A stretch of 63,265 nt of DNA from Obrimoposthia wandeli (lineage: Eukaryota). The position numbers and the translations under genes were made by a program. The notes under the pieces were generated by a model. The model was not told where the DNA came from, did no database searches, and saw only the letters and a program-made list of their open reading frames with translations. Positions 1 through 55,302 of the stretch are shown here, piece by piece. Every line of letters begins with the position of its first letter. Position 1 is the first letter of the stretch. The stretch covers positions 186,001 through 249,265 of the forward strand of contig CDROCS010003202.1 of the NCBI GenBank assembly GCA_977020255.1, read 5' to 3'.

Positions 1-317
1 GTAAGTGTGTGAATTTGTTGTGTATGTGTGCGGTTTGTGCATATGTGCACATTAATACCATGTGTCCATGGACATGTTGCCCACCGCAAAGTCTGAGATA
101 AGTATGCCATCCCCCTGTTGAGCCCGGCAGGGCGAAACCGGTTAAGCCGGTCGGGGATTGACACTAGAATTATCTTTAAAAATACCAAAGTGCATTATTT
201 CTTAATTGAAAAATATTTCCCTAATTAAGGAAATCTCTTAATTAAATTATTTCTTTTTAATCTTTAATTTTTCTTTTATTTAAAAATTGTATAAATATTT
301 CTAAAATATTCTCAACA
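1..317 (-). mobile_element. Right end of an LTR of the hammerhead-bearing Gypsy LTR family (cut by the window edge)
   Basis: Ends in CTCAACA at 317, like CCCAACA at 4533 and 8741. It shares the hammerhead and the downstream 'ccaaagtgca...tttccctaattaaggaaa' block with 8570-8650. Confidence 0.7.
109..158 (+). ncRNA. Type I hammerhead ribozyme (core variant CUGUUGA)
   Basis: ATCCCC-CTGTTGA-GCCC(GGCA)GGGC-GAAA-CCGG(TTAAG)CCGG-TC-GGGGAT. All three helices pair perfectly and the GUC cleavage site falls after C152. The core has A6 changed to U. Confidence 0.85.
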
Positions 318-1737: not shown

Positions 1738-2560
1738 TCAGATAGTTGGGATCGCGATAGATCCAATTGTGTCAACATATTTTTTCCAGCTGATGATTAG
1801 CTCCCGAAAAGCCTTTTCAAAGAAACCATGATCACATTTATTGAAAAAATCACAAACATTGTTGATCAAATCATCTGTGCTGTCGAACTTAATGCCTCTC
1901 AAATGCTTCTTAAGATACCGGAACATGTAGAAGTCACTAGGTGCGAGGTCTGGGCGAGTGGTTAATTGTAATGATTCGGTGAATGATTCAGTAGAGAAAA
2001 GCCCATCTCCAGAATTGTCGGTCCTGTGAGGTTTGCTGTGTGCATTGGCGCATTATCCTGCATTAGCCATAAAGGTGTGTTTCGTGCTTTGCGCCTGTTC
2101 TGTCTAGTAGTTGTTACAAGATTACTGTAATATACTGCATTGATAGTGCTGCCTTTCTCAGTAAAATCTAGTTTTATAACACTCTTTGTGTCCCAAAATA
2201 CTGTCAGCATTGTTTCTTTTCGATGAATTATTCCTGATCTCATTTTGTTTGACGGCTTCTCATTTGGAAACTTCCATTCCTTGGATTCACGACGAGATTC
2301 GGGCAAGTACATAGAAAGAGTTTTTTCATCAGTTGTTACAATGTTACTTAGGAAACGGTCCCCCACTGTTCATAAAGTTGCAAATTTTCAACACAGCACT
2401 CCAATCGACGATTCATCATTTCGCCTGTCAAACACCTGGGCACAAATCTTGAACACAGTTTTCGAAAACTTATATCTTTCACCATTGTGTGAAGGCTTCC
2501 CACACTGATATTAAGACGAATGGACAGCATTTTAAAAGAGATTCTGCGTTCATTATTCAC
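1738..2560 (-). pseudogene. Mariner (DD34D-type) transposase, frameshifted
   Basis: Motifs 'KLCSRFVPRCLT', 'IVTTDEKT', 'MLTVFWD' and 'QDNAPMHTA' are present, and 'HSPDLAPSDFYMFRYLK' reads across a frameshift near 1960. Confidence 0.9.
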
Positions 2561-3283
2561 GATCTTAATTAATTTTTCCTTAACTTGATCTGGAATCTCT
2601 TTTGCGATCTCCCCGTTCTTTTATCATCAAACACAGAAGTGCGACCATTTTAAAATACTTGACATACGTTTTCACAGTAGCATAACATAAAGAATCACCA
2701 TTGTACATATATTGAAGCATTTTATTTATTTCAGTTGCGTTTAGTCCTTGCAAAACAAAAAACTTGATAACACTACACTTAATTTATCAAGTATTTGAAA
2801 ATGTTCCACTAAAAATATAAACAAAAATAACACATTAAAATAACGTATATAGTTATTACCTATATATAATTATGTAGTTATATGAAAAAATAAAGGATTG
2901 TATCTATCATTTTTCTATAGTAGGCTAGACTTATTAAATATACCACGTATATAATTACTTAAAGTAAAATTAATAAATTTTATTTTACTTTCTTTTGAAA
3001 GTATCAAATGAATTACGTAAAATGTTAAAAGTTGAAATTATAAAGATATTTTGATTAAATTTAATATTTTCAAAATCATATGAAATTTAAAGAAGAGTGT
3101 GATAAAGAGACTAATATTTACAGTTATAAGAGCAGAACGTAGTAGTTTTCTTTGTTAAAAAAACTATAATGTAATGAGTAGGTGGAGTAGGTCTTCTAAA
3201 AGCGTACATGTGAGTTTGGAGTATGCTTGTATGTAAAAATATATGTTAATAAAACTGGTAAAGAAGAAAACGAATTAGTATAT

Positions 3284-3736
3284 TAATCAAATAATTTCTG
3301 AAACGCTTCCGAAAATCAAATAATCTCTGAATTGTTTCCGTAAATCAAATAATTTTGGTTCAAATAATTTCTGAAACGCTTCTGTAAATCAAATAATATC
3401 TGAATTGTTTCCGTAAATCAAATAATTTTGGTTCAAATAATTTCTGAAACACTTCTGTAAATCAAATAATATCTGAATTGTTTCCGTAAATCAAATAATT
3501 TTGGTTCAAATAATTTCCGAAACACTTCGGTAAATCAAATAATATCTGAATTGTTTCCGTAAATCAAATAATTTTGGTTCAAATAATTTCTGAAACACTT
3601 CTGTAAATCAAATAATATCTGAATTGTTTCCGTAAATCAAATAATTTTGGTTCAAATAATTTCTGAAACACTTCTGTAAATCAAATAATATCTGAATTGT
3701 TTCCGTAAATCAAATAATTTTGGTTCAAATAATTTC
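3284..3736. repeat. 73-bp composite tandem repeat (about 6 units) within the LTR
   Basis: 'caaataatttc(t/c)' recurs at 3361, 3434, 3507, 3580, 3653 and 3726. Each unit is built from aatcaaataat sub-repeats. Confidence 0.95.
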
Positions 3737-4353
3737 TTTTAATTTTTGTTGAATCTTCTAAAATTTATTAGCACAAGAAAATAAATTATCCTTTATAAAT
3801 AGGTAATGTCAATATCCACACAAAACTGCAGTATGGTCTGGACTAGGTGTGTGATCACTGTCACCGACCGCACACACACACAACGAACCACAATCACCGC
3901 AGAAGAGACAGATGGATCCAGAAAAGGAGATCAGAGATCCATAGACAGGCAGCAGTTCAGGGCAAAATGAAAAAATCAGGACACCAGATTGCACACGGGC
4001 ATGTGCATGTGCAATTTGACTTTGGCAGCACTGATAGATTTAGGATGCGAAATCGACGGCTGATAGAACACACACACAGTCATAGATTCCAAATCAATAA
4101 CACAACACACAGACACCGTCTACACAGCATAAATGTCATTGGCAGTACTGCTGGCATTTTACAGAGATAGAGGGAGAAATGAGACCGCAATTCCCACTTA
4201 GATAACATCGACGGCGGCTGTTGTTGATGTTGTTGTTGGTAGAGGTATGATGCTGGCCGATGATGGGGAAGGAAGGTGGAAGAGGACCAAATCTGCTGGG
4301 AGGTCCGGAGAGCTGGGCGGAAAATTCACTGTGGTTAATCTTGTTATCAAGCC

Positions 4354-4406
4354 GCCTTCCTGATGAACCTGGCAAGACGAAACGGGACGTCCACCCCGTC
4401 GGAGGC
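4354..4406 (+). ncRNA. Type I hammerhead ribozyme with degenerate helix II
   Basis: GCCTTC-CTGATGA-ACCT(GGCA)AGAC-GAAA-CGGG(ACGTCCAC)CCCG-TC-GGAGGC. The core is intact and helices I and III pair, but helix II has two mismatches. Cleavage would fall after C4400. Confidence 0.75.
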
Positions 4407-4749
4407 TGACAAGTAAAACCTCCCTGACTGTGGGCACTTCAGTTAATGTCAATTTTAATTGACTAAAAATATTTATTAATTTTTATTAATTTTTTAATTA
4501 ATTAATGTATGCAATTAATTTTTTAACCCAACAATCCTATGGGGGTAAACAAAGTCAGACCTCTGACGTTTTTATAAACAAGAATAGAAAGAATGTCCCG
4601 TTTAGTACATAGCTGTCTAACGTGACTTTCACAAAAAATTACTCGAGTCTGTTAATGTAAAGATAAAAATTAAAACATTGATTTTACACTTTGCATCCAC
4701 AAGCAATAATACATTTAGTGAATGATGCATAGTAAAATATCTTACTAAT

Positions 4750-5943
4750 CTAAAGGTTGTCCTCAGAATCAAAGGAGCAAATGTCTACGACTTCAGGCAG
4801 GTTATTATTGGCAATGCAGGGGAGAGAGACCGTCAGTCCATATTCTTCTATAAGCTCTTGCTCTTTATGGAGGAAAATCTTTCGGGTCCATTGTGTGTCT
4901 ATGAGGCTAGAGTGGGTATTCTTTTGTATTTCCTTATTGAAATACCACAAAACCATTCGAGCAAGTCCAGCTTGTTCTCTACGGTTCATTTCTAATTGAA
5001 TAGTCTGTGTTGCTCCTAGATCGACCGTGTGCGAAAAATCGTTTTTCTGTAGTCCTAAAACTTTGAGATCGTTGGTTATTCCCGTCTCTACGAAAATATT
5101 GTCTCTTAGCAAGGATTGAAGGCGTTCTAACACTTCGACAGAATCAGGTTGGTTTCTTAACTTCCGTTCGTTAAGGCCCATTATTCTTGTCACATAATTC
5201 CTGATTCTGTCTCTGCTATTGCATTTTGTATCCAAAACGATCTGTCCGCTTCTATTCATTATAGTAATGCTGGCTAGGGTGGGTTGTTTATTCATCTTTA
5301 CTACCATTTCACAATCGACAAAAAATATTTGAGGATTGTTATGGATGATGTTCAAATGGCAGACTTGTACGGGATTAGGTCGCACATTTTGTTCTATGAA
5401 TAATATGTTATTTCCACCCGACAAAAGAATCATCAAATCGGGAGTTATTTGATGTCTCATCAACCGGTAAGAGTGGTTTTGCAGGAGAAGGACAGAGAAA
5501 TGTTTGCTTTTCTTGTGTTTTAAAAATCCACGGCCTTTTGCTACGTGAATCTTAATGTCCGTGCATGTAGGTAAGAATTTCATCAACTCAAACAGTCTTT
5601 GTTCTGTTGGCTTTTTGCTATTTTTGTTGAGAATTATGCTTTGTCTTGGGGTGTCTCTTAACTTGATGCTATTTGGAAGCTGGGTCTTATTGTCAAAAAT
5701 CTTTATTCCGTAATGTTTATGGAAATACCTTGTTCCAAACTGCCTTATTTTTCCATAAAGGAACTTAGCCATTTTTGCCATTTCTGGACGTTGTTCTGCT
5801 AACTGGACTAACTTCTCTCTCTTACCCTGCGGCACAACCTGCCAGTTCAAATGAAGATTCGTGCTTGTGGGTTCCATCTGTAGGGTATACAGATATAGTA
5901 AAAATAAAAGTTGATTTTTATATGCAAATATAAATATTGTCAA
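4750..5943 (-). CDS. Accessory protein with a C-terminal DEDDh 3'-5' exonuclease (REX4/ISG20-like)
   Basis: 397-aa ORF with 'FFVDCEMV' (ExoI), 'LASITIMNRSGQIVLDT', 'IRNYVTRIMGL', 'GITNDLKVL' (ExoII) and 'HSSLID' (ExoIII). Confidence 0.85.
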   Translation of the reverse strand: MTIFIFAYKNQLLFLLYLYTLQMEPTSTNLHLNWQVVPQGKREKLVQLAEQRPEMAKMAKFLYGKIRQFGTRYFHKHYGIKIFDNKTQLPNSIKLRDTPRQSIILNKNSKKPTEQRLFELMKFLPTCTDIKIHVAKGRGFLKHKKSKHFSVLLLQNHSYRLMRHQITPDLMILLSGGNNILFIEQNVRPNPVQVCHLNIIHNNPQIFFVDCEMVVKMNKQPTLASITIMNRSGQIVLDTKCNSRDRIRNYVTRIMGLNERKLRNQPDSVEVLERLQSLLRDNIFVETGITNDLKVLGLQKNDFSHTVDLGATQTIQLEMNRREQAGLARMVLWYFNKEIQKNTHSSLIDTQWTRKIFLHKEQELIEEYGLTVSLPCIANNNLPEVVDICSFDSEDNL

Positions 5944-6302
5944 ATGTCTATCAAATGAAATGTTCCTGTCAGTTTATTTGTCTCTTTTTGTTACTCAAAA
6001 GTCTGTAAATCATTTTAGTCTTTCATGTAACAAGCTCAATCAAACAGGTATATAAATAAGATATAATTTTTCATTCTTTAATACATATTCTTATTACTGG
6101 TGTTTTCAATATCAATATATACATACTTATATAAATATACTCATTTTTATCTATTCTTAATTTTATTATTACCACTTCAACTAAAGCTAATGAATATTAA
6201 TACCCATTCATAAACACATTTCCCTTCCAAAAACATGCCATAAGCTCAAACTCATTCTCAATTTTCTTTTATTTTATATTTTAATTTACTCACTGGATTT
6301 TA

Positions 6303-6611
6303 CTAATTTTCACACCCGGAATCATCACTTTCTCCCGGTTGAAATCCCATCAAACAATTAATTACTGATCTTAATGATACAAGAGAGTTTAATGCTTCTC
6401 TGAGTCGTCGTACTAATAATTCCTGATTTGTTTGGCTATGTTCTAATCTTTCAATTACAACGTCAAAAGCATTATTCATTCGTTCACATTCCATTTCCTT
6501 GTCTTTCAAATGCGATCTCAGATTTATATTTTCTATCAATAATTTATTTTCCCATTTCTTCTGTCTCTTATATCTTCTTCTATTATTTTGTACTATTTTT
6601 GAATTTCTCAT
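6303..6611 (-). CDS. Small basic/coiled-coil accessory ORF of unknown function
   Basis: 102-aa ORF with a basic N-terminus and a heptad-like helical stretch. It is co-oriented with the other element genes. Confidence 0.45.
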   Translation of the reverse strand: MRNSKIVQNNRRRYKRQKKWENKLLIENINLRSHLKDKEMECERMNNAFDVVIERLEHSQTNQELLVRRLREALNSLVSLRSVINCLMGFQPGESDDSGCEN

Positions 6612-7782
6612 TTTCTAGAATAAGTCTTAATAAGTCTTAAGTTCATTTTTATTATTTTCTATTTAAACTAAACACATACGCACTTTTCTTCATCTACATT
6701 ATAAATACTTTATTTTATGACTAGTTTTTATTTTAATATTTCATTTATGTATTTTCTATGACAATTTTATAAAGGTTTTTCTCTTTTCTGTTTACTATTC
6801 TCAATTATTATATTTATTGACACGTTAGATGAATTTGAAGAGCTAGGAATGATGGATGTCATAAATGGGCCAGGTGGTTCACAATACTTAGTCCGATAAT
6901 GATTCTTGAAAATTGTGTTATTTTTTACTTTAATGATCTTCCATGTTATTTTTATGATTAATGTGCAGGTTTCGATTATTATGATTGTTATAAAAAATTC
7001 CTTGTTATTTATATTTTTGAGTATTTTTGTTTACTAAAGTGTATTTTTAGACTTTCATTAAATGATTTATAGGGTATTGTTTCTGTTGTTTTTAATTTTT
7101 TGTTAATTGTTTTATTTTCTGTGATATTACTTTGATTTGTAATTTCATAAGTCTTTGTTGTGAAGGTTGTAGTATGTGGTATTTGTTTTATGGTTGTTTC
7201 TTTGATATATTTCCTAATTGTAATTACTGACCATTGGCCACAAAAAATCGTAGGTTGGTATAATTTGGATATTTTATTTCCTAAAATCCTTAAGTTTGTT
7301 AGATTTTTACAAGTCTCAAATTGTTGTCCCCATTGTCTATACATTATTGGTTTGTTAGTAATTACACATTCTCTATTATCCATAATTATTTTTTCTGGAT
7401 ATCTTATATTTTTTATAGTTATATTTGTTCTGATTTGTGATTTTTCTAATTGTTTTTCTGCGTCTTTCCAAAAATGAGCATTATGTCCTCTATATCTAAT
7501 TCTAATGAGGGTTTTATCAAAATTATCTATTTTAAGTTAAAATTCCCAATTTATCATGATTTGATGTTTTGTTATATATTTTGCTGTCGTTTTTAATAGT
7601 GAAGCTAAGTATAAGTGTTAAGTGGGGATTGATGTATAAAAACTGATTCCAATAATAATATATTCAATTCAAAATAAATATATGTTTTCCAACTCCAGTA
7701 TAGTTTTTACAATAATTTGAGATTGATCACAATTTTAATACAACAAAATAGTTTCTGTAATAATTTTATATTGATTACTATT

Positions 7783-7945
7783 TGTAATTGACAATAGTTT
7801 CTGTGGCAATTTGGATAATTTATTCAGATAAACCTGTAATTGACAATAATTTCTGTAGCAATTTGGATAATTTATTCAGACAAATCTGCAATTGACAATA
7901 GTTTCTGTGGCAATTTGGATAATTTATTCAGATAAACCTGTAATT
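7783..7945. repeat. 52-bp tandem repeat (about 3 units) inside the solo LTR
   Basis: 'tg(t/c)aatt' unit starts at 7783, 7835, 7887 and 7939. Confidence 0.9.
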
Positions 7946-8517
7946 TTTATGTATTGACGATGTTGAGATTCGTCTTTTCACTATTCTATTTATAGAATAG
8001 TTGATCCGGAAAATAGTCCATTGCGACCGGGGGTTGGAGAGAGGGAGAGAGAGAGATAGACAGATAATTCTGCTGGTAAAAATAGATGGCACACAACAGC
8101 AGAACAGTCGGCAATCTCGGCTCTGTACACACAACTACAGATGTAAGGCCGGAAAATATTGCCGCCTGTTTGGCTTCTGGGCAGAGAAATCCTGGACAAG
8201 TGGGAAATCTGGCTTACATATAATACATACACACCAAACAGAATGTGAGTGAGTGACTAGGGAGAGTGAGTGAGCAAGTGATTGAGTGAGTGAGTGAGTA
8301 GTGAGAGTGAGTGAGTTGAGTGAGTAGTGAGAGATGTATTTCATGTCTGCTGTGTGAGTGTGTGTGTGTTGAATTGTGCACTTGCGCACACCAACATCAC
8401 ATGTCGTCGATATTCGTCGGCACATGAAAGGGGGAATCTTTCCTTCTTTTCTCTGGCTTTTTATTATTGTTATCTCTGGCTTCGCGGAATCCACCGCGAA
8501 GTTAGAGATAACAAGCC

Positions 8518-8569
8518 ATCTCCCTGATGAGCCCGGCAGGGCGAAACGGGCTTTTTCCCCGTCGGAGAT
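8518..8569 (+). ncRNA. Type I hammerhead ribozyme, fully canonical
   Basis: ATCTCC-CTGATGA-GCCC(GGCA)GGGC-GAAA-CGGG(CTTTTTC)CCCG-TC-GGAGAT. It has the canonical CUGAUGA/GAAA/GUC core and three perfect helices, with cleavage after C8563. Confidence 0.95.
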
Positions 8570-9199
8570 TAACCACTCTAAACTAAAATGCCAAAGTGCA
8601 TATTTTATCTAAATAGAACTTTTCCCTAATTAAGGAAAGTTCTTAATTAATTCCTTAATTAATAAATTCTCATTTTTTAATTTTTATATATATATATATA
8701 TTTTTATTTTTTAAATAAATATTTATAAGATATTCCCAACATAAGTGAGTTTCTATAATTCTTTCATAGAGTGTTATATTCTTTAAATTCGACTTAACTC
8801 TTATTTTGTATTGTGTCTCTGTTCTTAAAAATGGTATTATATAATTTTTTGATTCGATTTTTGTAAATATTTATTATTTGATTTTTTTCAGATTGTATTA
8901 TTTGAATTCTTCCTAATTTTTTTGTAAAGAGGGATATTTTCAACTTTATTGATGTGATTTCAGGTATTATTGTAATAAGTCCAAAATTTTTTATGAGATG
9001 TGTTGATGAGTCGTATCTATTTATTTCGTCTTTTACTATTAATTGATTTTCATTCAGGTTTATAGCGTTTACTTTTATTAGGTTACTTTTTACTGCAACA
9101 TATATTACTAATAACATCATTATTTTACATATTTCTTTTATTGAGATTTTTATTATATTTCTAGTTTGATGACACAAAATAGTATTGTTTTGTTTTTGT

Positions 9200-12100
9200 G
9201 AGTTTTTTATAGTTAACATTTGTAAAACAGTATTATTGTTAGTTGATCTTAAATTATATTTGTGACTTTTTACTTTTGTATTTTTCTCAGGTATTTCTCG
9301 ACATCTGCTTATATGTGTTCTTATTTCTTTTGATTTTGGTTCATTATCTAGTTTAGCTGTTATGTTGGTTCCGTTGGTACTAATAACTGTATATGGTCCT
9401 TTGTATGGTTTTGATAATTTGTGTGATAATCCTACATTGATTTGTGGATTGTGAATCATTACTTTACTTCCGATTTTTATATTTGATGGCTTAGTTCTTC
9501 TATCATAATATTCTTTGTAATTTTCTTGTATGTTTTTTACAAATAATTTAGCTTTTTCGAATGCTAGTTTTATTCTTTCTCTTATTTCTATTTTGTATTC
9601 AGGTATTTCTAGGTACTGTGTAGTAGGTTGTAGTAATGTTAGGTCAATATGCATTTGAGGATCTCTGAGGAACATAAGGTAAAAAGGTGTTTCTCCTGTA
9701 GATGCATGTACTGATGTTCTATATGCAAAAGGGCATGGAGGTATATGTAAATCCCAATCTGTTTGGTTGTTGTTTGTGTATGATGCCATCATATCTTCGA
9801 GGGTTCTATTAAATCTTTCTACTAATCCGTCGGTTTGAGGGTGATATGGAGTTGTATTGATCTTTTTTATGTGAAAAGTTTCAGCTATTGACGCTAATAC
9901 ATTATCTATAAATTCAGGACCTTTGTCGGTTAATAATTTCCGGGGTGCACCGAAAGTAAAAATAATTTTTTCGACTAAAACCTTCGCGATGGTTTCAGCC
10001 TTATGATCATGTGTTGGAAAAGCCTCTGGCCATCTTGTAAAATAATCAGAAAATACTATTATATATCGATTTCCTCGGGTGTTTCAGGTAATGGCCCCAT
10101 TACATCCATGGCAACAGTTTCCATGGGGGCTGATGGATACGGTATTGGTTTTAAAGGTATTTTTGTGGTACGTAAAGTGTTTTTTTGTTTAAGACATATT
10201 TCACAAGTATTACACCAATTTTTTACATCTTCTTTCATATCAATCCAATAATATTTTAAGTTTAATCTCGAATGTGTCTTTTTTGTTGAAAGATGTCCTC
10301 CTAAAGCTCCGTTATGATATTGAAGGAGTAATTGGCCTTGTATTTCTTTAGGAATAACTAGTGAATACAGATTTTTATCGTTTAGATAATGTAAAATATT
10401 GTTACTGAATTTATAACGAGATTCATGAATTTTTAAATGTTTTCTTAATTTTTCATCTGTTGGAACTTGATTGATGGTGATGTACTTAATTATTTGTTGT
10501 ATTTCCGAATCTTTGCTTTGAAGATCGGTGATTACTGTTTCATCATATCGAGCTTTGATTATTGTAAAAAGATTTAATTCGATGTCATTGGAATTTATTA
10601 CATTTACTTCTTCTCTTATTCTAGATAGGCAATCTGCGTTGGCATTTGATTTACCTTTTCTATATTTAATTTCAATATCATATTTTTGTAAAATTAACGC
10701 CCATCTCATTAATCTAGATGTCGTATCTTTATGATTTAGTAGCCACTGTAATGGTCGTTGATCGGTATAGACGTGAACTTATCGACCTAATAAGTAATGT
10801 TTAAAATGTTCCATTGCGAAACAAATAGTGAGGCATTCTCTTTCTATAGTTGAATAATTTATTTCGTGTTTTTTAAGACCTCTGTTTGCGTAAGCTATCA
10901 CATGATCTTTTTCGTTATTATCTTGTTGTCCTAGTACTGCTCCTAACGCATAGCCACTTGCGTCAGTCATTACTAAAAATGAATTGTTGAAATTAGGATA
11001 TCTAAGTATAGGTTTTTCAATCAATTTTTGTTTAAGTACTCGTATGACTCTTGTTGTTCCGTTTCCCATTCAAACTTTTCATCCTTTTTAATAAGTTTAT
11101 TTAACGGTGTCGCTATTTGTGCGAAGTTTCTGATAAATCTACGATAATATCCTGCAAGTCCTAAAAATTCTTGTATATTTTTTACTGTTTTTGGGATCGG
11201 AAAATTCTTTAATTTTTCTATATTACTTTCATCTGGTTGAATTCATTTTGCAGACACTGCGTGACCTAGATAATTCACTTTGTCTTTCATCCATTCACAC
11301 CTTTTTGGTTTTAATTTTAAACCTGCTATTTTTAATCTAAGAAATACATTTTCTAAATCTTTTAAGTGTTCTTCAAAATTTTTTGAAAAAATAAGAATAT
11401 CGTCAATATAGACCATGACATGATCGGCGTCCATTAAAATGTGGCTCACGCATCTCTGAAATGTTGCTGGAGGACCTGTTAATCTAAAAGGTAAAACATT
11501 AAATTCGTATAATCCTTCTCCTGTTGAGAATACTGTTTTTTCTTTGTCTGATTCATCTATTTCTATCTGCCAATATCCACTTTGTAAATCTAAAGTTGTA
11601 AATATTTTTGCAATTTTTAATTTATCCAAGATTTCATCGATTCTTGGGAGCGGATATGTGTCTTTATGTGTAACCTCGTTTAATTTTCTGTAATCTACGC
11701 AAAATCTTAGTGAACCATCTTTCTTTTTTACTAAAACAACTGGAGATGTCCATGCTGAAAAACTTCTTCTTATGATTTTATTCTCTAACATTCCTTTTAC
11801 CTGTCTTTGAGCTTCTTCTCTGTAAGCGTATGGGATACGGTAAGGTCGTTGTTTAATTGCTGTATTAATAGTTAAAGGAAGGTTATGTTTAATTAAATCT
11901 GTTCGTCCAAGGTCATATTCATTTTTTGCAAAAATTACGTCATATTTTTCTATTAATGATTTTAGTTTTGATTTCTCATAATCATTTAATTTAATATTTT
12001 CAAATTTTACAGTGGAATTGTCTTCTATTTTTTCATTATTAATTAATTCTATATTTTCTATAACGCTTATTTTTCCAAGGCACATTCCTTCTTTTAGATG

Positions 12101-12490
12101 AATCTCGTTTATGTCTGCATTTAGTATTCTGATTGGTATTGTATTATTTTTTATTTTACAAATTATATTTGGTAGAACGTAATTTAGTGTTTCTTGTTGA
12201 TATTTATAAGGTTCGAATAATATGTCTTTTTCTGTAATTATGTTAGTTTCTAGTTGTAATATTGTTTCTGTTCTAGGTTGAAGGATGATGTCTCCTTTTA
12301 TTTCTAATTCGTATTCGCTTTTAGCGTTTGATCTGTAAATGTCTTTAATTTGATTTTTCTCGAAGTCAAAATGAAATTTTTTTCCTAATTTCCTTAATGT
12401 ATATATTCCAATTATCATCTGGCATGGACAATTTTTCATTATTCTAGTAGGTATTTTTATAAATTTATCTCCTATTTTAAAAATGCAATC
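9200..12490 (-). pseudogene. pol: Gypsy pol (C-terminal half of protease, RT, RNase H, integrase) with frameshifts and stops
   Basis: RT 'TLDLQSGYWQ' and 'YIDD'; RNase H 'VMTDASGYALGAVLGQ'; integrase zinc finger 'HNGALGGHLS...CNTCEIC' and 'VAMDVMGP'; GPY/F-like 'LSKPYKGPYTV'. Confidence 0.95.
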
Positions 12491-12507
12491 TAATTTACCA
12501 ATAATAT

Positions 12508-13530
12508 TTACGGGTTGACAAATTTTGTTGGTGTAGTTTTTGCATTATATATTTTTTCTTTACTTAAATATATTCCTTTATAATTAGTTGTATAAATAGA
12601 GTGTCCACATCGGGATTCCTCTTTCTTTTTAATAAATCGCATTCCAGAACCTTGTTCTGTTGACATTAGAATAGTTGGGGTTGATGTTTTTTGAATTTTT
12701 CTTGTCCTATATTTTTTATGTATATCTTTTGGCACTCTTTGATCAAGTTCCGGGTCATCTTTAAATTTTTGACCTTGAATTATTTGAAAATTTTCAGATT
12801 TAAGGAGTATTAATTTACATTGGTCTGTTTTTACCTTATAATATAAAATTGAGGATCCTGTATTGCAATGACTTATATTTGCTTCGCAAAATGGCATAGT
12901 TACCATATTATTTGTAGATGGGTCAAATGTTGCTTTGAACGTTCTTAGTTCTACTTCAAAGTTTTTTATAACTACTAAACCACTTTGTTTGACTCCCATC
13001 ACAACGTATGTGCCTGTTGTACATGTACCGTCAGATTTTATTGTTCCTATTACTGTAATCATTTGTTGTATAATTTTATTTTTTACTGCTCGTACTTTAA
13101 TTTCTCTATCTATTCTTAGTTCTCCTGTTGCAAAATCGTCCTTACAATTTAGTGCATCGACAATTATTGATATTTTTCCTAGTGCAGGTTTGACAATTGA
13201 GTTATGGCTGTGTTGTCCGCAATATGTTATGAATGTTTCTACGTGTACCCTACACTCGAAAATTTCTGTATTTAGGAAATCTGTTTCCTGGTATACATGG
13301 AATAACTTGGTGGTTTTGATTTTTACTTCGTTTGGGTCGGCATTAGCACATTGTTGCAAATCCATCAAGGAATATTTATTTTGAATACTATATTTTGAGC
13401 AATCATACGCTTCCAGGGCATTAACTGGTTTTATTATATTTGTAATTATATATATCGTAAATATTACTTGAATTATTTTCCATAAATTCTGGATGATTTT
13501 GTTGAAATTATAAGTATTTTTAAGAGTTGT
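12508..13530 (-). pseudogene. N-terminal half of a chuvirus-like / herpes gB-type (class III) fusion glycoprotein
   Basis: Signal-like 'LWKIIQVIFTIYIITNNIKPVNA' is followed by 'LEAYDCS...SLMDLQQC', 'ECRVHVETFITYCGQHSHNS', 'GTIKSDGTCTTGTY' and 'FCEANISHC'. This cysteine spacing is recalled from chuviral G proteins. The ORF is truncated at a junction into protease. Confidence 0.7.
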
Positions 13531-15200
13531 CTTTTTACTATTTTTTGGTGTTTTTTACTTTTTGATTTTGTATTTTGTGTTTGAGTAGTTTGATTTATTG
13601 TTTTACTTATTTGTGTTCTTTTTTCTAATGTTAGACAACCATTTCTAAATATATCTCTTAATTCCGATTGAGAGTTGGTACTATTTGTGTTTTGCTCATT
13701 GTTTTGGTATTGTTGATGTGTTTCTTTGTAGCGATTATCTATTTCTTGTTGTCTTAATCTCATCAATGTGACTTCTTCTGTTTCCTGAGTTATATCAGTG
13801 TTTTCAATAGTATGTATTGGGTTTCTGTAAGCATATTGTTGATTTTGATTGTTAAACTGTACTGTTTTTTGAATCTGTGGTTGTGGTTGTTGTTGTTGTT
13901 TTATTGTTGTGTTACCAAATTGGTTCATCATTGTATTTAGTTTGCTACATTCATCAGTATTGTGATTTTTCATATTACAAATTTTACAGAATTTTGTATT
14001 AGTATTAAAATATTTAGCTTGATTATTAAAATTATTAAAATTATTATATGGGCTTCTAAAATTACTATTTGCATTTTTGAAATTATTATTTGGATTATTA
14101 AAGTTATTATTTTGTGATCTTATATTATTACCTTGTCTGTATAACAATTTTCAGCAAGTTTCAATAGTATGATTGTCTTTTTTACAAAATCTACAAAATT
14201 TGTTTGTTATTTTATGACAATTTTCTATTGTGCGATTTTGCAGTCCACAATTTGTACATTTCTGGAAAGGTCTTTGTGTAATTTGTGAGTCTGTATAGTT
14301 TCTGTTTGTTTGATTTCTATAAAAGTTATTTGTCGGTGGTGTATATTGTTGTTTGTTTTGGTAATTAGATTGTGAGTTTGGGTTGTAGTTTTGAGTTTGA
14401 TTGAAATTTGGTGGTGTTGTTGGTCTTTGTATTTTTTCAAATGTTAATGCTGAAATTTCAGATTATTGTAACTTGTTTAATCTTGTTTCTACAAGTTGAG
14501 CTTTATTTACAGCCTGTTGAAAATTTTCTACTTCTAGTAGTGCTGGGTGATTTTTTATTTTATTGTTTAGCCCATATAGAAACTGATGTAGGAGTAAGCG
14601 TTCTCTTAAGACTTCCTCAATTCCGGGAAATGATTTTAAGGCTAATCTTCTTAATTCAACTGCAAAGATATTTGTGGGTTCTCCCATATGTTGTTCACGT
14701 TGCCTAAATTGGTTAAGGTAATTTTGTTCTGATTGTGCTCCTAAAATAATATTTTGAAAATTCTGGACCAAATGAACCCATGTGTCTTTCTGTTCATTAT
14801 TTAATCCTCTATAAATTGTTAAGGCAGTGCCCTTTAAATACGCCGGAAAAACCCTAAGTTTCTCTACATTAGTCCATTCAAATGCCTGAGCAAATGAATC
14901 AAATCTATTTAAAAATTCAGGTAGTGAAGATTTATCGCCATTGAAAGCGTCTAATGGAACATTTAACTTATGTTCAACCATTATTTGAGGTTGATTGATT
15001 ATTTGTTCGTTGTTTATTTGTACAATATGTGGTTCTGGTACGGCCACTGCTTCCGTTATCTCTGACGAACTATCCGAGTCAGATGTTTGTGGTGTAGGTA
15101 AACTCTCTGTATTTGAAGTTAATGTTAGGTTAAGATGTTCTGAGAGTGAGGAAGTCTGTGTAATTAATCGTTATTTGTTGTAAAACTGATTTGTGATTTG
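13473..15200 (-). pseudogene. gag: Gag (capsid domain plus zinc-knuckle-like motifs), frameshifted
   Basis: 'LDAFNGDKSSLPEFLNRFDSFAQAFEW' and 'FRQREQHMGEPTNIFAVELRRLA' match the Retrotrans_gag pattern. Knuckle-like 'CKICNMKNHNTDEC' is present, with a second near 14150-14200. Confidence 0.9.
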
Positions 15201-16639
15201 GGTCTTTGAATCGTTTTTTCACTGGAGTCTGTCCTAACTAATCTTGTTTGAATTCTTCTCCAGTAAAGGCTAGCGCTACGTTTTTGTTTATTTATTTTGT
15301 GTGTCTGTTTTTTGTGATAGTACTTTGGGTTTGTGTTGTTATAATTTATTTTAAAATTTCAAAAACAACTTTTGTGACAAAATGAAAAATGCGTAATGCG
15401 TACTGAAACTAAAAATATTTCGGTGATATTCGTAAAGGTTATTTGGTCAATCTCAAAATCAAGTTCTCTTAATAATATCAAAAACACGTTCTTTGAAAAC
15501 CTCCGGAGAAAATCTATCTATCCGAAGTTTTATTTGATTTTATGTTGTTTTTAATTTTTAGTACAATAACAAGACTCAAAAATTTCTCTCAAAAATCTCT
15601 GTCCCTTATCACTTTGAGCACTACCACCGCCAACCAGTATATAGTCTTTATATGATAGCACTCGACGTAACTTGGAAAACAAGACAATTTGCGACAAAAT
15701 TTTAAATTTTTTGATCAATTTTATTTTTTATACAAAAATATATTTATATGATTATTTTAAATTTTATTTTACTATTACGCCTCTAATAGATAAATCCACT
15801 CCAGTTTATAGTTCTCAAAAAGGAATCTTTATTGGTAAACCAGTTCGAAGGAAAATGTTTTAAAAAAAATTCAAAATTTATTGTATTTGAGTTGTGCTTC
15901 GTTTGTTGATTATTTTTTAAATATATTTGTCAGTGTGCAAAACTCTATCCGACAACAGCCAGTGTTTAGCCTTTATGTGAACAGAACTCCGAAAACCAAT
16001 AAATTATTTTCTATTAATTTTACAATTAAAATGATCAACACAACTCAAATTATAAAAGAAAATTAGAGAACAAGACTCGACTATGTTTCAGAAAACAAAA
16101 TTATGTTTAATCTTAGGAGGCTTGTGCGCAAAGCTGCAAACACCTCAACTATAGGGAAAATTTAAAAATGTCAAATATAATTGTTAAATAAATAAAAATA
16201 TTCAATATATAAGTAAACTATAGTTAAAAATGCAAAGAAATTTTTAATCTTTCTATAAATATAAATGATTCTCACAAAATCAAGATAAATATAACTATTA
16301 TATTCAAAATAATAATAGTTTATATAATTTTTAAGTTAAATTCCTAACTATTTAGTATTTTAAACTTACGAGGCTTGTGCGCAAAGCTGCAAACACCTCA
16401 ACTATATGAAAAACTATGAAAATTGACAAAGTAAATAAAATAAACTAAAATAAACAATATAATATCAATTTACAGAGTAATTTTAACAAAATATCAATTA
16501 TAGTAATGGTTTTTAAAAATAATTAAAATCAATGATCTAAAATCAATTTACAAGAGCAAACAACAAGATAAAAGGTAAATGAAATTTTAAAACAAATAAA
16601 ACAAAAGTAACTAGCCTGTTTTCCTCGAAAATCTTGTGC

Positions 16640-16657
16640 TCTTTGTCGAACTCACCA
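16640..16657 (-). promoter_or_regulatory. Primer-binding site (TGGTGAGTTCGAC...)
   Basis: On the minus strand, TGG starts 3 nt after the LTR end AACA. The same TGGTGAG junction recurs at 28680-28690. The cognate tRNA was not identified. Confidence 0.7.
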
Positions 16658-16660
16658 AAT

Positions 16661-17509
16661 TGTTAATAAAACTGGTAAAAAAGAAAACGAATTAGTATAT
16701 TAATCAAATAATTTCTGAAACGCTTCTGTAAATCAAATAATCTCTGAATTGTTTCCGTAAATCAAATAATTTCTGAAACGCTTCTGTAAATCAAATAATA
16801 TCTGAATTGTTTCCGTAAATCAAATAATTTTGGTTCAAATAATTTCTGAAACGCTTCTGTAAATCAAATAATATCTGAATTGTTTCCGTAAATCAAATAA
16901 TTTTGGTTCAAATAATTTCTGAAACACTTCTGTAAATCAAATAATATCTGAATTGTTTCCGTAAATCAAATAATTTCTGAAACACTTCTGTAAATCAAAT
17001 AATATCTGAATTGTTTCAGTAAATCAAATAATTTTGGTTCAAATAATTTCTTTTAATTTTTGTTGAATCTTCTAAAATTTATTAGCACAAGAAAATAAAT
17101 TATCCTTTATAAATAGGTAATGTCAATATCCACACAAAACTGCAGTATGGTCTGGACTAGGTGTGTGATCACTGTCACCGACCGCACACACACACAACGA
17201 ACCACAATCACCGCAGAAGAGACAGATGGATCCAGAAAAGGAGATCAGAGATCCATAGACAGGCAGCAGTTCAGGGCAAAATGAAAAAATCAGGACACCA
17301 GATTGCACACGGGCATGTGCATGTGCAATTTGACTTTGGCAGCACTGATAGATTTAGGATGCGAAATCGACGGCTGATAGAACACACACAGTCATAGATT
17401 TCAAATCAATAACACAACACAATGTCATTGGCAGTACTGCTGGCATTTTACAGAGATAGAGGGAGAAACGAGACCGCAATTCCCACTTAGATAACATCGA
17501 CAGATAACA
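16661..17509 (-). repeat. 5' LTR, truncated (lacks the hammerhead-containing segment)
   Basis: Near-identical to 3244-4212 apart from tandem-array copy number and a short internal deletion. Homology stops at 17501. Confidence 0.85.
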
Positions 17510-26000: not shown

Positions 26001-29000
26001 AACCGAGTAAGCTCGTAATTTTTCCCACAGTAACTTACTTTTTGAAATTTTCACAAAGATCTGTTGATAACAATTTTTAAATAAGCTGCCTTTAATCGAA
26101 AAGTGTCACATTATCGCCTATTTTTCTTCCACCTCTGATCGTTTCATGGCACACTGAATTATTCTCTGAATGACTTGATATGTGCCTATTTAACTTCCTG
26201 TAATAAAGAACTGGTCTAACCTTCGCTTTGTTTACCTACTCAACTGTCATTAATGGTGTCAACTCATCAAATTCTACGAGCCAACCGTTATCTATCCAAA
26301 TCTGAATTTCGACGATCCAGTTCCCTCTTTAACGTACGGTTTTATTCCATAATTACAAACCTTGATTCTAAGAATGGCTGGATCACAAATCCAATTCTAT
26401 TTAACATTCCATAAACTTCCATCGAACTTTGCACTAAAATCTGAATCATCTATTTCAAGATCTGACTTCCAAATGAAATAGTAACCTCATCTAGTTCATT
26501 TATTGTGTCCACTCCCAAAATAAAATCTAAACCAACGTGTAATGACTTCACTACTAGGCATTCCACTGCACACTCCCTGTAACCTATTTTAACGAATGTG
26601 CTAGGGATTTTATCACATCTAACTATACGACCATCTACACAATTTTTTTTTACATAGTAAAAATAAATGATGTCGACAAGAATCCCTTTTGTTCAACTTT
26701 CCAATATCTACTACTACAATTCCAAATATTTAAACTAATTATCACATATATTAAGAAGAATTCAAAATAAAATAATAACACGAAAATTAAAATAGTAAGT
26801 AGACGTTTAAATACAACTATAGTTGAAATATATATTTGGTTGATACAAACGATTTTGAATAAACTCGACAAAAGTATTTCATTTATTAACATAATCTCTA
26901 TCTGCATTAATAACGCTGCCATCGATTTTGGAGCTTATAAGTCCAATCTCTGTAAAACTGTTGTGACTATGAATCGAAGAAGTTGCAGAGTTTCATTCTA
27001 ATTGCTTCTCTATCACCAAATGCCTTCCCATCAAGATGACTGGAAAATATGGTAATCCGATGGTGTATTATCTGGTGAGTATGGTGAGTGCAGTAGTAAT
27101 TCCCAGCTCATCTCTAAATTTTTTTGGTGAGTATTTTTCTCCCTGTGTAGTGGATTATTCATGGAGATTTTTTTTTAAATTCCTAGTCATTTTTAGTTAA
27201 ATTCAGGACTTTGCAATTGATTACAATATATGTGTGAATTAATAGTTTTATTATTTTCAAACTATTCCCACTAGGATAATACCTTGTACATTCCACAAAA
27301 CACAACATATCTTTCATCTCGTGTAATGATATTTTGGTTCATCTTTAACTTACTGTTCACTGACATTTTTGTCTAATGTTAGCATGCAAAGCCCACTTTT
27401 TATCTTCAGTTAGTGTTGTGACTAACCAATCATTTCTACGCTTATATGATTATAAAGAAGTTAAAATATATAAACATCTAAATTTATATATAATGTGAGT
27501 TTCAAGGTACTAACTGTCCTAGTTGTGTGATCTATCCCGTAGGTGTCCTAATTCACGCATGGTTAGTCTAGGATTGGTGTGAATTGCTTCATATAGGAAG
27601 TCATTGTTTAGAACACTTGAATGACATAACCCGGGTTTATCATCACTTCCCACTGACGTTTCTGTCTAATGTTAGCATACAAAGCCCACTTTTTATCTTC
27701 AGTTAGTGTTGTGACTAACCAATCATTTCTACGCTTATATGATTATAAAGAAGTTGAAATATATAAACATCTAAATTTATATATTATGTGAGTTTATGAG
27801 GTACTACCTATCCTAGTTGTGTGATCTATCCCTTATGTGTCTCCTAAATCACGTATGGTTAGTTTAGGATTGGTGTCGACTGCTTCATATAGGAAGTCAT
27901 TGTTTAGAACACTTGAATGACATAACCGAAATTTATCATCAATACTCCAATCTCCAGATTTAAACTATGACCTAATTACGTACTGTTTACGAGATAATTA
28001 TAGCTTCATCAAATGTAAAATATTAATTACGTTGAGATTCCGCTGCTTTCGTACCCAAACAATATTCATAAAAAATACATATCCGAAAATGATCTCTAAA
28101 AAAATAATTTAACAAATATTTCAAAATATTTGAGTTTATTGATATAGTATTGATACAGAAAAATAAAACAGATAAACTCAAAACACCCTTCACCAATCCA
28201 TTATAATGCTTTTTTAAGATAGAAAAAGGGCTTATTAACCTGGATTTGACAATTTTTACAGAATTTAAAATATCAAATAATATATTTATATGTCAATAAG
28301 TTAGGGCAGTTGTGTATTGCACAATCACAATTGGTAAACAATCGACAAAACTGTTAAATCAAAAAACAAATTGTATTCTAAATAAAATTCCTGTAACACT
28401 CAGTATAGCAGAGTAATTGACAACTAATCTGTTCAAATTGTACAATCAAAAAACAAATATGAAAAATAAAAATATTGTATAAAATATATAACCTGTATGT
28501 TACTAATTTTTTAAAAAAATTACCTATTTCAAATAAGGTCTTATTGACAATCAAAAATATGTATTATTACGAAAAACCAATTCAAAAATCAAAATTTAGA
28601 AAATTCGAATTATCAAAAACTGTCAAATAAATAAATAAACGACCTGAATTTTTCTTTCCGTCTATGTTCCTTGGACGGGCTCACCAAATTGTTATAAATT
28701 GTTAAAATTCTCCGAGATTATTATTGAATTCCTGATAACTTGGTAATTATTCTAAATAAAGACTAGTGATACGTTTTTGTTTATTTATTTTGTGTGTCTG
28801 TTTTTGTGATTTGTTTTTTTTGGGTTTGTGTTAGTACTTTATTTTATGTTTCTAAAGAAATTAGTGAAAAATAGGAAATGTGTAATGCGTACGGAAATTT
28901 AAATAGATTTCGGTGATATTCGGAAAAATTATTTGGTCAATCTAAAAATCAAGTTCTCTTAGTAAAATCAAAAATACGTTCTCAAAAATTTTTTGGAGAA

Positions 29001-52877: not shown

Positions 52878-53037
52878 CGAAACACCACACCACACCACCG
52901 AAACACTCCACTCTCCGCCCGCTCCTTCGGGGCGGGCTTCATTCTTGATCTACAGGCACGAAAAACATCGGTCAGATCTATATAATTTAGAGGAGCAAAA
53001 ACAAAATACGAGACAAAATTATTTTTCAAAATATTTA

Positions 53038-53538
53038 TTAAACATAAAACAATATATTGGCTTCACTCAAAGTCCAGAGAGGCTGCATTTTCCCGTCATC
53101 AGCAAAATATCCATTCAGACGTATTGAGATATTCCATAGTTCTTCATCTAGAATTGGAGCAATCAAATATCCTAGATCATCTTTAAAATCCAGACTGGGA
53201 TCAGTTTCAAGCTCGAAACAATTTCCTTCATATACATAATCAGGAATGTAAAATCCCAAAATATTTTTCAGTTGATCAAAATCAGTTGTTAAAATTTCGA
53301 TGAGATATTTTTTCTCCACTTTTGATATTTTCACAGGATTCATAACTCGTATAATTTGATGCTTCTTTAATATATTACATAGCTTTCCTATTGAAATTCT
53401 CTCTGGATAATAAAAATTTGCTACACATCTCTTATCCATTCTAAAATAAGGAAACTGATTAAAAACAATGTTTATAAAAAATACACATAAGATACAAATA
53501 TTTAAAAAACAAAACTGATTATCAAATGAAAGAAACAT
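53038..53538 (-). CDS. Maverick accessory ORF of unknown function (paralogue of 53573-53944)
   Basis: Shares a C-terminal pattern with its neighbour: 'ISIRLNGY...MQPLWTLSEANILF' versus 'VTIRLYGY...KLPMWKIERAHISMF'. The start may be the Met of 'MDKRC'. Confidence 0.55.
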   Translation of the reverse strand: MFLSFDNQFCFLNICILCVFFINIVFNQFPYFRMDKRCVANFYYPERISIGKLCNILKKHQIIRVMNPVKISKVEKKYLIEILTTDFDQLKNILGFYIPDYVYEGNCFELETDPSLDFKDDLGYLIAPILDEELWNISIRLNGYFADDGKMQPLWTLSEANILFYV

Positions 53539-53572
53539 AGTAAAACCGATTACAATTTATTACACACAAAAG

Positions 53573-54048
53573 TTAAAACATAGAAATATGAGCACGTTCA
53601 ATTTTCCACATAGGCAACTTTGTTCCCATTTCATCTTTCTTGTAACCATAAAGTCGAATTGTTACAGTCCATTGCTTCTTTTTCGGAAACGCATCAATAT
53701 CAACATATCTTCCATAGTCATCTAGAAATGCTTCATCGGCTCCTCGGATATAAAATTCGTTCTTATTGAAAGTAAAATTCGGAACTGCCTTTTCTATTTT
53801 CTGTTTAAGATATTGAAAATCAGGTTTTTGAATACCTGATAGATAGTAGCTGAACTTTCTTCTTTCAATTGTCACAGGATTTACTAAAGCAATCAGTTGA
53901 GCCTTCTTCAAGAATCTGACTTTGTATTTGAAATATTGTTTCACTTCTTCTTACATATCCTTATCCGATTCTTCAAACATTTCTTCGTCATCGCTTAATA
54001 CCAGTTGGCTATCATCCATTGTTGATAATTGTCTTTGATATGAATGCA
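53573..54048 (-). CDS. Maverick accessory ORF of unknown function (one in-frame stop near 53950)
   Basis: 123-aa open frame at 53573-53944 with an acidic upstream extension from an ATG near 54048. Confidence 0.5.
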
Positions 54049-54915: not shown

Positions 54916-54992
54916 ATTGATTTTAGAAAATATATCTTATTACATCTTGTTATCTTTTCTATTAACAAACCCGTTTAAACTTATTGTTTTGA

Positions 54993-55265: not shown

Positions 55266-55302
55266 TAATATAAACAATATTAAAAATGAAAGAGTATATG
55301 CA

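What the first reader, a model, noticed from the sequence alone, without database searches (positions are those of the whole stretch)
7612..8745. Solo LTR of a sister hammerhead family inserted into the env of the large element
Seen: TGTT...AACA with a TAAG duplication. Excising it restores the env-like reading frame. Its primary sequence differs strongly from the host element's LTR, yet it has the same module order. Inference: the hammerhead LTR moved by integrase-mediated insertion as part of a true LTR element, and at least two or three diverged families share the design, so it is a clade trait rather than an accident.
Basis: partly seen in the sequence, partly recalled or inferred. Interest (0 to 1): 0.7.

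Follow-up and report, generated by a model that had tools for sequence, protein, structure and literature searches.

The report
Retrovirus-like element with backward-facing ribozyme
The insert is an ordinary leftover end-repeat (solo LTR) of a retrovirus-like element, but this whole group of envelope-coding elements carries a hammerhead ribozyme motif on the non-coding strand of its end-repeats, which likely cuts RNA transcribed backwards into the element, an arrangement I did not find described.

Summary
Confirmed: a 1,126-bp solo LTR (7616-8741) with a true TAAG target duplication; 26 of 30 host-family copies carry one TAAG there. Its partners are full-length gag-fusion glycoprotein-pol Ty3/gypsy elements, not retrozymes. 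Correction: the interrupted region is not env. The fusogen lies between gag and pol; the insert breaks an in-frame, predicted membrane-anchored beta-sandwich tail after integrase, and this copy has further breaks. The real finding is the clade trait: a type I hammerhead motif (3,715 pattern matches against 1 control) near the U3 end of LTRs that otherwise barely align between types, with compensatory stem changes, on the strand opposite the genes and the tRNA-Trp primer site. In 24 of 54 loci a TATA box sits inside a palindrome about 480-630 nt upstream of the cut. Best reading (0.5): the ribozyme cuts backward transcripts at the LTR boundary, limiting antisense RNA. Neither cleavage nor antisense transcription was tested; no RNA run was listed. 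Known: gag-env-pol elements (flatworms, nematodes, bryozoans) and same-strand type III hammerheads in non-coding plant LTR retrozymes. This scan earlier noted a hammerhead in a solo LTR elsewhere in this genome. New variant; interest 0.66.

The parts
7612..7615 (+). 4-bp target-site duplication, left copy (TAAG)
   Evidence: a single TAAG in 26 of 30 host-family loci
8742..8745 (+). 4-bp target-site duplication, right copy (TAAG)
7616..8741 (-). Solo LTR of the sister family (type B). Its sense strand is window minus, so U3 begins at 8741. Same orientation as the host element
   Evidence: Partners put the primer site and genes on that strand; 1.35% from an LTR of a full-length partner over the U3-side 620 nt
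8515..8572 (+). Type I hammerhead motif, antisense to the element. Stem I 8518-8523 with 8564-8569, core from 8524, predicted cut after 8563; 5' GCC complementary to loop II GGC
   Evidence: hammerhead fold -20.1 vs minimum -20.2 kcal/mol; pair counts
7980..8001 (.). TATA box in the loop of a palindrome with 10-bp arms, about 570 nt upstream of the cut on the hammerhead strand; candidate two-way core promoter
   Evidence: promoter activity inferred, untested
7783..7945 (.). 52-bp tandem array (3.1 copies); each unit has AATAAA on the sense strand; likely in R/U5
8245..8333 (.). (GTGA)n-rich tract between TATA and hammerhead
3244..4533 (-). Host element 3' LTR (type A) with 73-bp tandem array
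4351..4409 (+). Host LTR hammerhead motif, antisense; this copy has mismatches in stem II; predicted cut after 4400
16661..17501 (-). Host 5' LTR; its U3 end, including the hammerhead, and about 225 nt of flank are deleted in this copy
   Evidence: the duplicate locus keeps the full LTR and shows a TCTA duplication
16645..16657 (-). Primer-binding site complementary to the 3' end of tRNA-Trp(CCA)
   Evidence: tRNA-Trp genes in this genome; 11 of 13 terminal bases match here, 12 of 13 in the sister family
13473..15170 (-). gag region, broken by stops
   Evidence: PF03732 E 1.3e-4, below the curated cut-off
12508..13554 (-). Fusion glycoprotein (the actual env), between gag and pol; C-terminal part missing in this copy
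   Evidence: PF24664 E 3e-26; sister copy covers the profile to position 635 of 653 and the frame continues towards the protease
9157..12544 (-). pol: RT, RNase H, integrase, in several broken frames
   Evidence: PF00078, PF17917/PF17919, PF17921, PF00665
6770..9156 (-). Post-integrase tail interrupted by the solo LTR: hydrophobic leader, beta-sandwich region, Thr/Lys-rich stretch, C-terminal hydrophobic segment; predicted membrane protein, no fusogen match
   Evidence: fold inconclusive
4750..5973 (-). Accessory 3'-5' exonuclease ORF, same strand as the genes
   Evidence: PF00929 E 2e-8; also in the sister family, 43% identical
106..164 (+). Hammerhead motif of a third LTR type at the window's start; core altered to CTGTTGA

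Best explanation
The insert is a solo LTR of an envelope-coding Ty3/gypsy family whose LTRs carry a type I hammerhead motif on the strand opposite the genes, and that ribozyme likely cuts backward-running transcripts at the U3 edge of each LTR. History: a sister element integrated here with a 4-bp duplication (shown) and likely lost its interior by LTR-LTR recombination (inferred from standard LTR biology). Function, step by step: (1) the motif is antisense, 100-220 nt from the U3 end, and is the shared island between otherwise divergent LTR types (shown); (2) it is predicted to fold as a full three-stem hammerhead and to self-cleave (untested); (3) backward transcripts would start at the palindromic TATA region or in flanking DNA (inferred); (4) cutting would leave a short upstream piece without a poly(A) tail and an uncapped downstream piece, both likely degraded, so the 3' LTR would send less antisense RNA into the genes and the 5' LTR less into host DNA (inferred); (5) the benefit would be less double-stranded RNA or small-RNA silencing (speculative).
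For: Orientation census of 88 hammerhead loci: 14 have the tRNA-end text upstream on the hammerhead strand, 0 have the primer site downstream on that strand. Of the 24 with element-protein hits within 1.5 kb, 21 are on the opposite strand. Larger stretches of five further LTR types agree. Conservation: the hammerhead lies in the alignable island in 15 of 15 pairs of six LTR types and is the only island in 9 of 15, while four-fold sites in RT are 57% identical between host and sister (35 of 61). Structure: 96.7% of 330 cells paired, 5 of 15 pairs changed on both sides, slid controls 35-53% paired; 0 of 500 shuffles reach the covariation score. Genome count 3,715 vs 1 for the reversed pattern. 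TATA palindrome in 24 of 54 loci vs 0 of 54 in the downstream control window; 21 point sense, 1 antisense, 2 are symmetric. The host LTR has TATAAATA on the hammerhead strand. Hammerhead-cut Pol II transcripts are degraded in HeLa and yeast reporters (PMC2288634, PMC3241649; passages).
Against: No cleavage, transcript or small-RNA evidence exists here. Rfam gives no match at gathering score, and folding z-scores are modest, -0.8 to -2.1. Among 29 type-B copies the motif is not more conserved than its neighbours (3.4% vs 1.4-1.9% departures); this is expected for decay after insertion but gives no support. The number of doubly changed pairs is not above shuffles (77 of 500), and the sequences are related, so the changes are few independent events. 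The strict TATA palindrome is absent from 30 of 54 loci, including all type A, C, G and H loci tested, and most point in the sense direction. The GCC:GGC tertiary pairing shows no covariation: 2 of 30 and 3 of 30 loop changes are compensated. Three of 24 loci have same-strand protein hits that I did not resolve. A 5'-OH end is described as a poor substrate for the nuclear 5' exonuclease (PMC3241649, passage), so the downstream piece may persist.
Confidence: 0.5

Rival explanations
1. [quoted passage not shown]
For: The sense-strand complement folds into a similar junction at -27.8 kcal/mol. No excess conservation among copies of one family. Near-identical motifs occur in GC-rich metagenome contigs, so capture is conceivable.
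Against: The unpaired catalytic letters (CTGATGA, GAAA, GTC) are invariant across LTR types (partly forced by the search pattern), and G-T pairs occur in stem I as read on the antisense strand. A sense-strand fold would not need either.
Confidence: 0.2
2. The two LTR ribozymes cut out a unit-length antisense RNA of about 13 kb that is ligated into a circle, as plant retrozymes do on their own strand, and this RNA has a role in the life cycle.
For: Full-length copies have two same-strand hammerheads about 13 kb apart. Plant retrozymes make circles between two LTR hammerheads (PMC4918200, passages).
Against: The antisense RNA would lack the primer site (0 of 88 loci), so tRNA could not prime it. 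The fully mapped sister copy has no antisense frame of 150 aa or more inside the element.
Confidence: 0.13
3. The useful product is the roughly 550-nt antisense RNA from the TATA region to the cut; the ribozyme gives it a precise 3' end and it acts as a regulatory or decoy RNA.
For: TATA-to-cut spacing stays within 477-629 nt in the 24 loci that have the palindrome; the stretch has no ATG-led frame over 45 codons in this copy.
Against: That stretch does not align between most LTR types.
Confidence: 0.12
4. One reading: the broken region is an envelope gene in the broad sense, a second surface protein for attachment beside the fusogen.
For: Hydrophobic leader, six N-glycosylation sequons and a C-terminal hydrophobic segment; feature look-alikes are fibronectin type III surface proteins at 0.86-0.90 (lead only).
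Against: No Pfam match at E<0.05, no homologue and no fusogen match. The model is poor (mean pLDDT 43) and its best structural matches are C2 domains at Z up to 7.1, within the background range.
Confidence: 0.35

Closest known systems
GAG-ENV-POL errantiviruses with gB-type envelope in flatworms, nematodes and bryozoans (Chary and Hayashi, PMC13524379; abstract, passages, section 15, flatworm and bryozoan rows of supplement 1 seen)
   Same: Ty3/gypsy pol, fusion glycoprotein between gag and pol, LTRs, tRNA primer site, many recent copies.
   Different: 'ribozyme', 'hammerhead' and 'exonuclease' occur 0 times in that paper's main text. Here there are also an antisense LTR hammerhead, a post-integrase membrane-type tail and an exonuclease ORF. 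The supplement rows seen give coordinates, not LTR sequences, so I could not check those elements for the motif.
Burro/GYPSM1 giant gypsy elements of planarians (PMC6431247, section 7 read)
   Same: Envelope in frame between gag and pol in one polyprotein; LTR tandem repeats.
   Different: Burro exceeds 30 kb with apoptosis and ubiquitin cargo, and no LTR ribozyme is mentioned for it; this element is about 14 kb.
Plant LTR retrozymes (PMC4918200, PMC7761336; passages)
   Same: One hammerhead per LTR, 4-bp duplications, gypsy-type primer site and ends.
   Different: Those are non-coding, have LTRs of about 350 bp and type III motifs, and their circular RNA carries both the ribozyme and the primer site. 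Here the element is coding, the motif is type I and it lies opposite the primer site.
Type I hammerheads of Penelope-like elements, Terminons and animal non-LTR retrozymes (PMC7229834, PMC7761336, 10.64898/2026.07.22.740005; passages)
   Same: Type I topology, animal genome, thousands of copies.
   Different: Those lack true LTRs, primer site and integrase; the Penelope and Terminon motifs are described as minimal, whereas this one has a full stem III.
Type III hammerhead-like motifs in GC-rich metagenome contigs (L124-L131)
   Same: Identical stem II and GGCA loop, 6-bp stem I, and TGA..GCC beside stem I.
   Different: Circularly permuted (closed loop I); the 8 contigs are 45-71% GC and have no hit to this element's proteins. 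Shared ancestry versus convergence is unresolved.

Membership tests
Ty3/gypsy LTR retrotransposon | RT-RNase H-integrase order in pol | tested here: met
Ty3/gypsy LTR retrotransposon | Paired LTRs with TG...CA ends and short target duplication | tested here: met
   Partner at G000:C3906 has LTRs 0.3% apart and CATA on both sides
Ty3/gypsy LTR retrotransposon | tRNA primer-binding site after the 5' LTR | tested here: met
   tRNA-Trp(CCA), 12 of 13 terminal bases
Ty3/gypsy LTR retrotransposon | Polypurine tract before the 3' LTR | tested here: inconclusive
   Only a short conserved purine-rich word (GGAGGAT or AGGAT on the sense strand) abuts the LTR
Ty3/gypsy LTR retrotransposon | RT groups with a named gypsy lineage in a tree | not tested
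   Best relatives are 52-55% identical and mostly unnamed; no tree built
GAG-ENV-POL errantivirus | Fusion glycoprotein between gag and pol | tested here: met
   PF24664 E 5e-66 upstream of the protease
GAG-ENV-POL errantivirus | gB-type cysteine-bridge pattern | not tested
   No fold run on the glycoprotein
Solo LTR | Single LTR with the duplication directly on both sides, and full-length partners elsewhere | tested here: met
Type I hammerhead ribozyme | Core CUGAUGA, GAAA, NUH with three stems, open at stem I | tested here: met
Type I hammerhead ribozyme | Match to an Rfam hammerhead model | tested here: not met
   0 matches at gathering score in the window; no E-value search run
Type I hammerhead ribozyme | [quoted passage not shown] | tested here: inconclusive
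   GCC:GGC complementarity in most copies but no covariation; such pseudoknots are common in hammerheads (PMC3088659, passages)
Type I hammerhead ribozyme | Self-cleavage | not testable with these tools
   needs an in vitro assay or RNA end data
LTR retrozyme | Non-coding interior of 600-1000 bp | tested here: not met
   About 12-kb coding interior in 4 of 5 partner elements
LTR retrozyme | Ribozyme and primer site on the same RNA | tested here: not met
   0 of 88 loci
LTR retrozyme | Type III topology | tested here: not met
   type I
env (fusogen), for the interrupted region | Match to a viral fusion-protein family or fold | tested here: inconclusive
   No Pfam, sequence or structure match, but the model is poor; the recognisable fusogen is elsewhere in the element

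The most novel reading that the evidence does not exclude
A clade of autonomous, envelope-coding animal retroelements uses a self-cleaving ribozyme built into the antisense strand of every LTR as an RNA firewall that destroys backward transcripts before they can feed double-stranded-RNA or piRNA silencing, together with its own 3'-5' exonuclease: a ribozyme-based counter-defence, and a hammerhead maintained in the true LTRs of a coding LTR element, for which my searches found no precedent.
Probability: 0.3. Interest if true: 0.85.

Novelty: new variant of a known kind. Interest (0 to 1): 0.66.

Why it matters
The nested solo LTR itself is ordinary. The clade trait is not. In the papers I saw, LTR hammerheads come from non-coding plant retrozymes, where they cut the RNA that is later copied. 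Here the motif sits in coding, envelope-bearing elements and cannot cut the genomic RNA because it faces the other way. If active, it shows a new use of a ribozyme: control of antisense transcription by a retroelement. It would also put a predicted cut site at thousands of places in this genome, solo LTRs included, able to truncate any host transcript that reads through on that strand. It offers a coding LTR element with the ribozyme that plant retrozymes have but whose presumed helper elements were reported to lack. The first test, self-cleavage of a 60-nt RNA, is cheap.

Tried and rejected
Rfam at gathering score: no match. Public runs: four holders from one study, no RNA holder listed. Laying two contig runs showed cover of all bins and joints that skip the insert, but contigs cannot show strand or RNA ends. 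Post-integrase tail: no homologue among 1,550 near-length candidates; two weak, apparently compositional hits among 1.84 billion representatives; single-sequence fold failed (pLDDT 33); five-sequence fold poor; Foldseek found nothing at E<=0.001. Fibronectin type III versus C2 is unresolved. Pseudoknot covariation: rejected as evidence. Within-family conservation of the motif: no excess. Relatives in other animals: the metagenome scan gave 8 GC-rich contigs without element proteins; the viral scan gave 4 loci that I did not examine. Host taxon: 18S genes were found but no library could classify them; 'probably a planarian' rests on other notes of this scan and on the gene order, and was not tested. 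The first tRNA loci tried were primer sites of other elements, not genes. Retrozyme, Penelope origin of this copy and independent transposition of the host-plus-insert composite were rejected. LTR-LTR divergence could not be computed for 3 of 10 pairs because the script's pattern failed. Literature searches for a hammerhead in the LTR of a coding gypsy element and for fibronectin domains in gypsy polyproteins listed no such report by title or abstract start; most subscription journals and Repbase are not covered, and bioRxiv supplements were not seen.

Full report
Observation. The window reads TAAG at 7612-7615, then TGTT...AACA at 7616-8741, then TAAG at 8742-8745. I searched the genome with the left flank alone and compared 30 of the 40 listed matches with each flank separately: 26 carry one TAAG between the flanks, 2 carry the insert and 2 lack the right flank within the locus. 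The second carrier (G000:C5446) shares the window's outer flanks at about 98%, so it is the same locus duplicated or a second haplotype, not a second event. The insertion and its 4-bp duplication are real.

What the insert is. Of the 30 best-matching LTR loci, 7 are solo LTRs with a 4-bp duplication (the window and its duplicate among them), 18 are joined to an interior on the primer-site or purine-tract side, and 5 were not classified by the script. Of five LTR pairs 12-13 kb apart that I fetched, four carry gag, fusion glycoprotein, protease, RT, RNase H, integrase, the post-integrase tail and an exonuclease, in the host's order; one has a different, decayed interior. All have stops or frameshifts. 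LTR pairs differ by 0.3-2.4% in the five type-B or B-like pairs measured, and the solo LTR is 1.35% from the youngest pair's LTR, so the family was recently active (no clock applied). The primer site matches the 3' end of tRNA-Trp(CCA), whose genes are in this genome. The insert is therefore the remnant of a coding Ty3/gypsy element. Loss of the interior by LTR-LTR recombination is inferred from established LTR biology.

What was interrupted. The Pfam fusion-glycoprotein match lies at 12508-13554, between gag and pol. In a sister copy the match reaches profile position 635 of 653 and the frame continues towards the protease. This gag-env-pol order is published for flatworm, nematode and bryozoan errantiviruses (PMC13524379, passages) and for planarian Burro elements (PMC6431247, section 7). 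The insert sits instead in a tail that continues the integrase frame in natural copies. All 150 best-scoring copies (of 4,781 candidates) match across the site at 96-100%, in frames up to 2,309 codons. The tail has a hydrophobic leader, six glycosylation sequons and a C-terminal hydrophobic segment. It has no Pfam match or convincing homologue. A language-model search points to fibronectin type III surface proteins at 0.86-0.90. A low-confidence model gives a beta-sandwich whose best matches are C2 domains at Z up to 7.1, within background. It is probably a second membrane protein, but nothing marks it as a fusogen. The window's copy also has a frameshift near 8855-8860, a stop at 7537-7539 and a frameshift near 7015-7018, and lacks part of the glycoprotein and protease, so the insert is one lesion among several.

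The hammerhead. At 8515-8572 on the + strand lies a type I motif: a 6-bp stem I, the core CTGATGA, a 4-bp stem II with loop GGCA, GAAA, a 5-bp stem III and a GTC site ending at 8563. Its hammerhead fold is within 0.1 kcal/mol of the minimum, and is the minimum in two family-typical copies. Rfam does not report it at gathering score, and shuffle z-scores are modest. A core pattern matches 3,715 places against 1 for the reversed control. In 22 distinct sequences, 96.7% of cells pair and 5 of 15 pairs change on both sides, against 35-53% paired in slid controls; 0 of 500 shuffles reach the covariation score but 77 of 500 reach the pair count, and the rows are related. Between six LTR types the motif lies in the alignable island in 15 of 15 comparisons and is the only island in 9. 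Host and sister RT are 89.7% identical in amino acids but 57% at four-fold sites, so the motif has outlasted substantial neutral change. Against this: among 29 type-B copies it decays no more slowly than its neighbours, and the attractive GCC:GGC pairing between the 5' tail and loop II shows no covariation.

Polarity. The genes and primer site are on the window's minus strand and the hammerhead is on plus. Among 88 pattern-fetched loci, 66 have the LTR end within 260 nt downstream, 14 have the tRNA-end text upstream on the hammerhead strand, and none has the primer site downstream on that strand. Of 24 loci with nearby element-protein hits, 21 are opposite and 3 are same-strand; one of those three has hits on both sides and so looks nested, the other two were not resolved. 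Longer stretches of five further types agree. The motif therefore lies antisense near the start of U3 and cannot cut the genomic RNA.

A possible source of antisense RNA. In the solo LTR a TATA box forms the loop of a palindrome with 10-bp arms at 7980-8001. Such a palindrome lies 477-629 nt upstream of the cut in 24 of 54 loci and in 0 of 54 control windows; 21 point sense, 1 antisense and 2 are symmetric (6 further loci lacked a central pattern match and were left out). The host LTR has TATAAATA on the hammerhead strand within shorter arms. The strict palindrome is missing from types A, C, G and H. Two-way promoter activity is an inference.

Mechanism. I favour cutting of backward transcripts at the LTR edge (0.5). 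At the 3' LTR the cut falls just before such RNA would enter the coding region; at the 5' LTR and in solo LTRs, just before it would enter host DNA. Hammerhead-cut Pol II transcripts are degraded in HeLa and yeast reporters (PMC2288634, PMC3241649, passages), though the second paper notes that a 5'-OH end should be a poor substrate for the nuclear exonuclease. A benefit against small-RNA silencing is speculative; the accessory exonuclease fits it but proves nothing. Rivals are a relic kept for its sense-strand fold (0.2), a unit-length antisense circle (0.13) and a functional short antisense RNA (0.12). No RNA data were available to separate them.

Comparison and novelty. Plant LTR retrozymes are non-coding, carry type III motifs, and their circular RNA holds the primer site; apart from the ends, primer site and purine tract, no similarity to gypsy elements was reported (PMC4918200, PMC7761336, passages). 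Animal type I hammerheads are described from Penelope-like elements, Terminons and tandem retrozymes without LTRs (PMC7229834, 10.64898/2026.07.22.740005, passages). Five searches listed no report of a hammerhead in the LTR of a coding gypsy element (listings only for papers not named here), and the errantivirus survey never uses the word in its main text. The library lacks most subscription journals and Repbase; bioRxiv supplements were not seen. The host is probably a planarian, on other notes and gene order only.

Verdict. The nested solo LTR is confirmed and ordinary, and the env label is wrong. The antisense LTR hammerhead across a clade of coding, envelope-bearing elements is a new variant of known kinds, with function untested. 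Interest 0.66.

Noticed in passing
window 4750-5973 (-); L032:2467-3636: Accessory 3'-5' exonuclease ORF (PF00929) behind the polyprotein in both families, only 43% identical between them while RT is 90%; a candidate anti-silencing or RNA-trimming gene.
   Followed up: partly
L124-L131 (metagenome contigs); L226-L229 (viral contigs): GC-rich contigs carry type III hammerhead-like motifs with the same stem II, GGCA loop and TGA..GCC beside stem I, i.e. a circular permutation of the LTR motif. The viral loci were not examined.
   Followed up: partly
window 17501-17504: Deletion of the host 5' LTR's U3 end with its hammerhead plus about 225 nt of flank; the duplicate locus on G000:C5446 is intact there and shows the host's TCTA duplication.
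   Followed up: yes
L038, L116, L118, L121: Mosaic elements: LTR type, post-integrase tail, the 103-codon ORF and the exonuclease occur in mixed combinations (for example a type-B LTR with a host-like tail and small ORF), suggesting frequent recombination between families.
   Followed up: partly
window 7616-8330 vs 8337-8640: Contig depth is far higher over the hammerhead end of the solo LTR than over its promoter and tandem-array part, consistent with many subfamilies sharing the U3 end and swapping the rest.
   Followed up: no
window 6303-6614 (-): 103-codon ORF between the tail and the exonuclease, 85-96% identical in several families, absent from the type-B copies mapped; only weak coiled-coil-like Pfam hits.
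   Followed up: no
window 53000-63000: Relic of a Polinton-like element: pieces of protein-primed DNA polymerase B (PF03175), a weak integrase hit and a TATA-binding-protein match at 54367-54912.
   Followed up: no
L214, L221; G000:C5734:143000-151100: Other LTR elements have a primer site that copies about 39 nt of the tRNA-Trp 3' half; the tRNA-Trp genes lie in a tandem array of about 207-bp period.
   Followed up: partly
G000:C1071:123292-133916: Five identical hammerhead variants at a period of about 2.65 kb, a tandem array of an LTR-derived unit.
   Followed up: no
window 1962-2369 (-); 15264-16153 vs 28757-29659: A mariner-type transposase fragment (PF01359); and a second, diverged copy (75-87%) of the host element's 5' leader region about 13.5 kb further on.
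   Followed up: no
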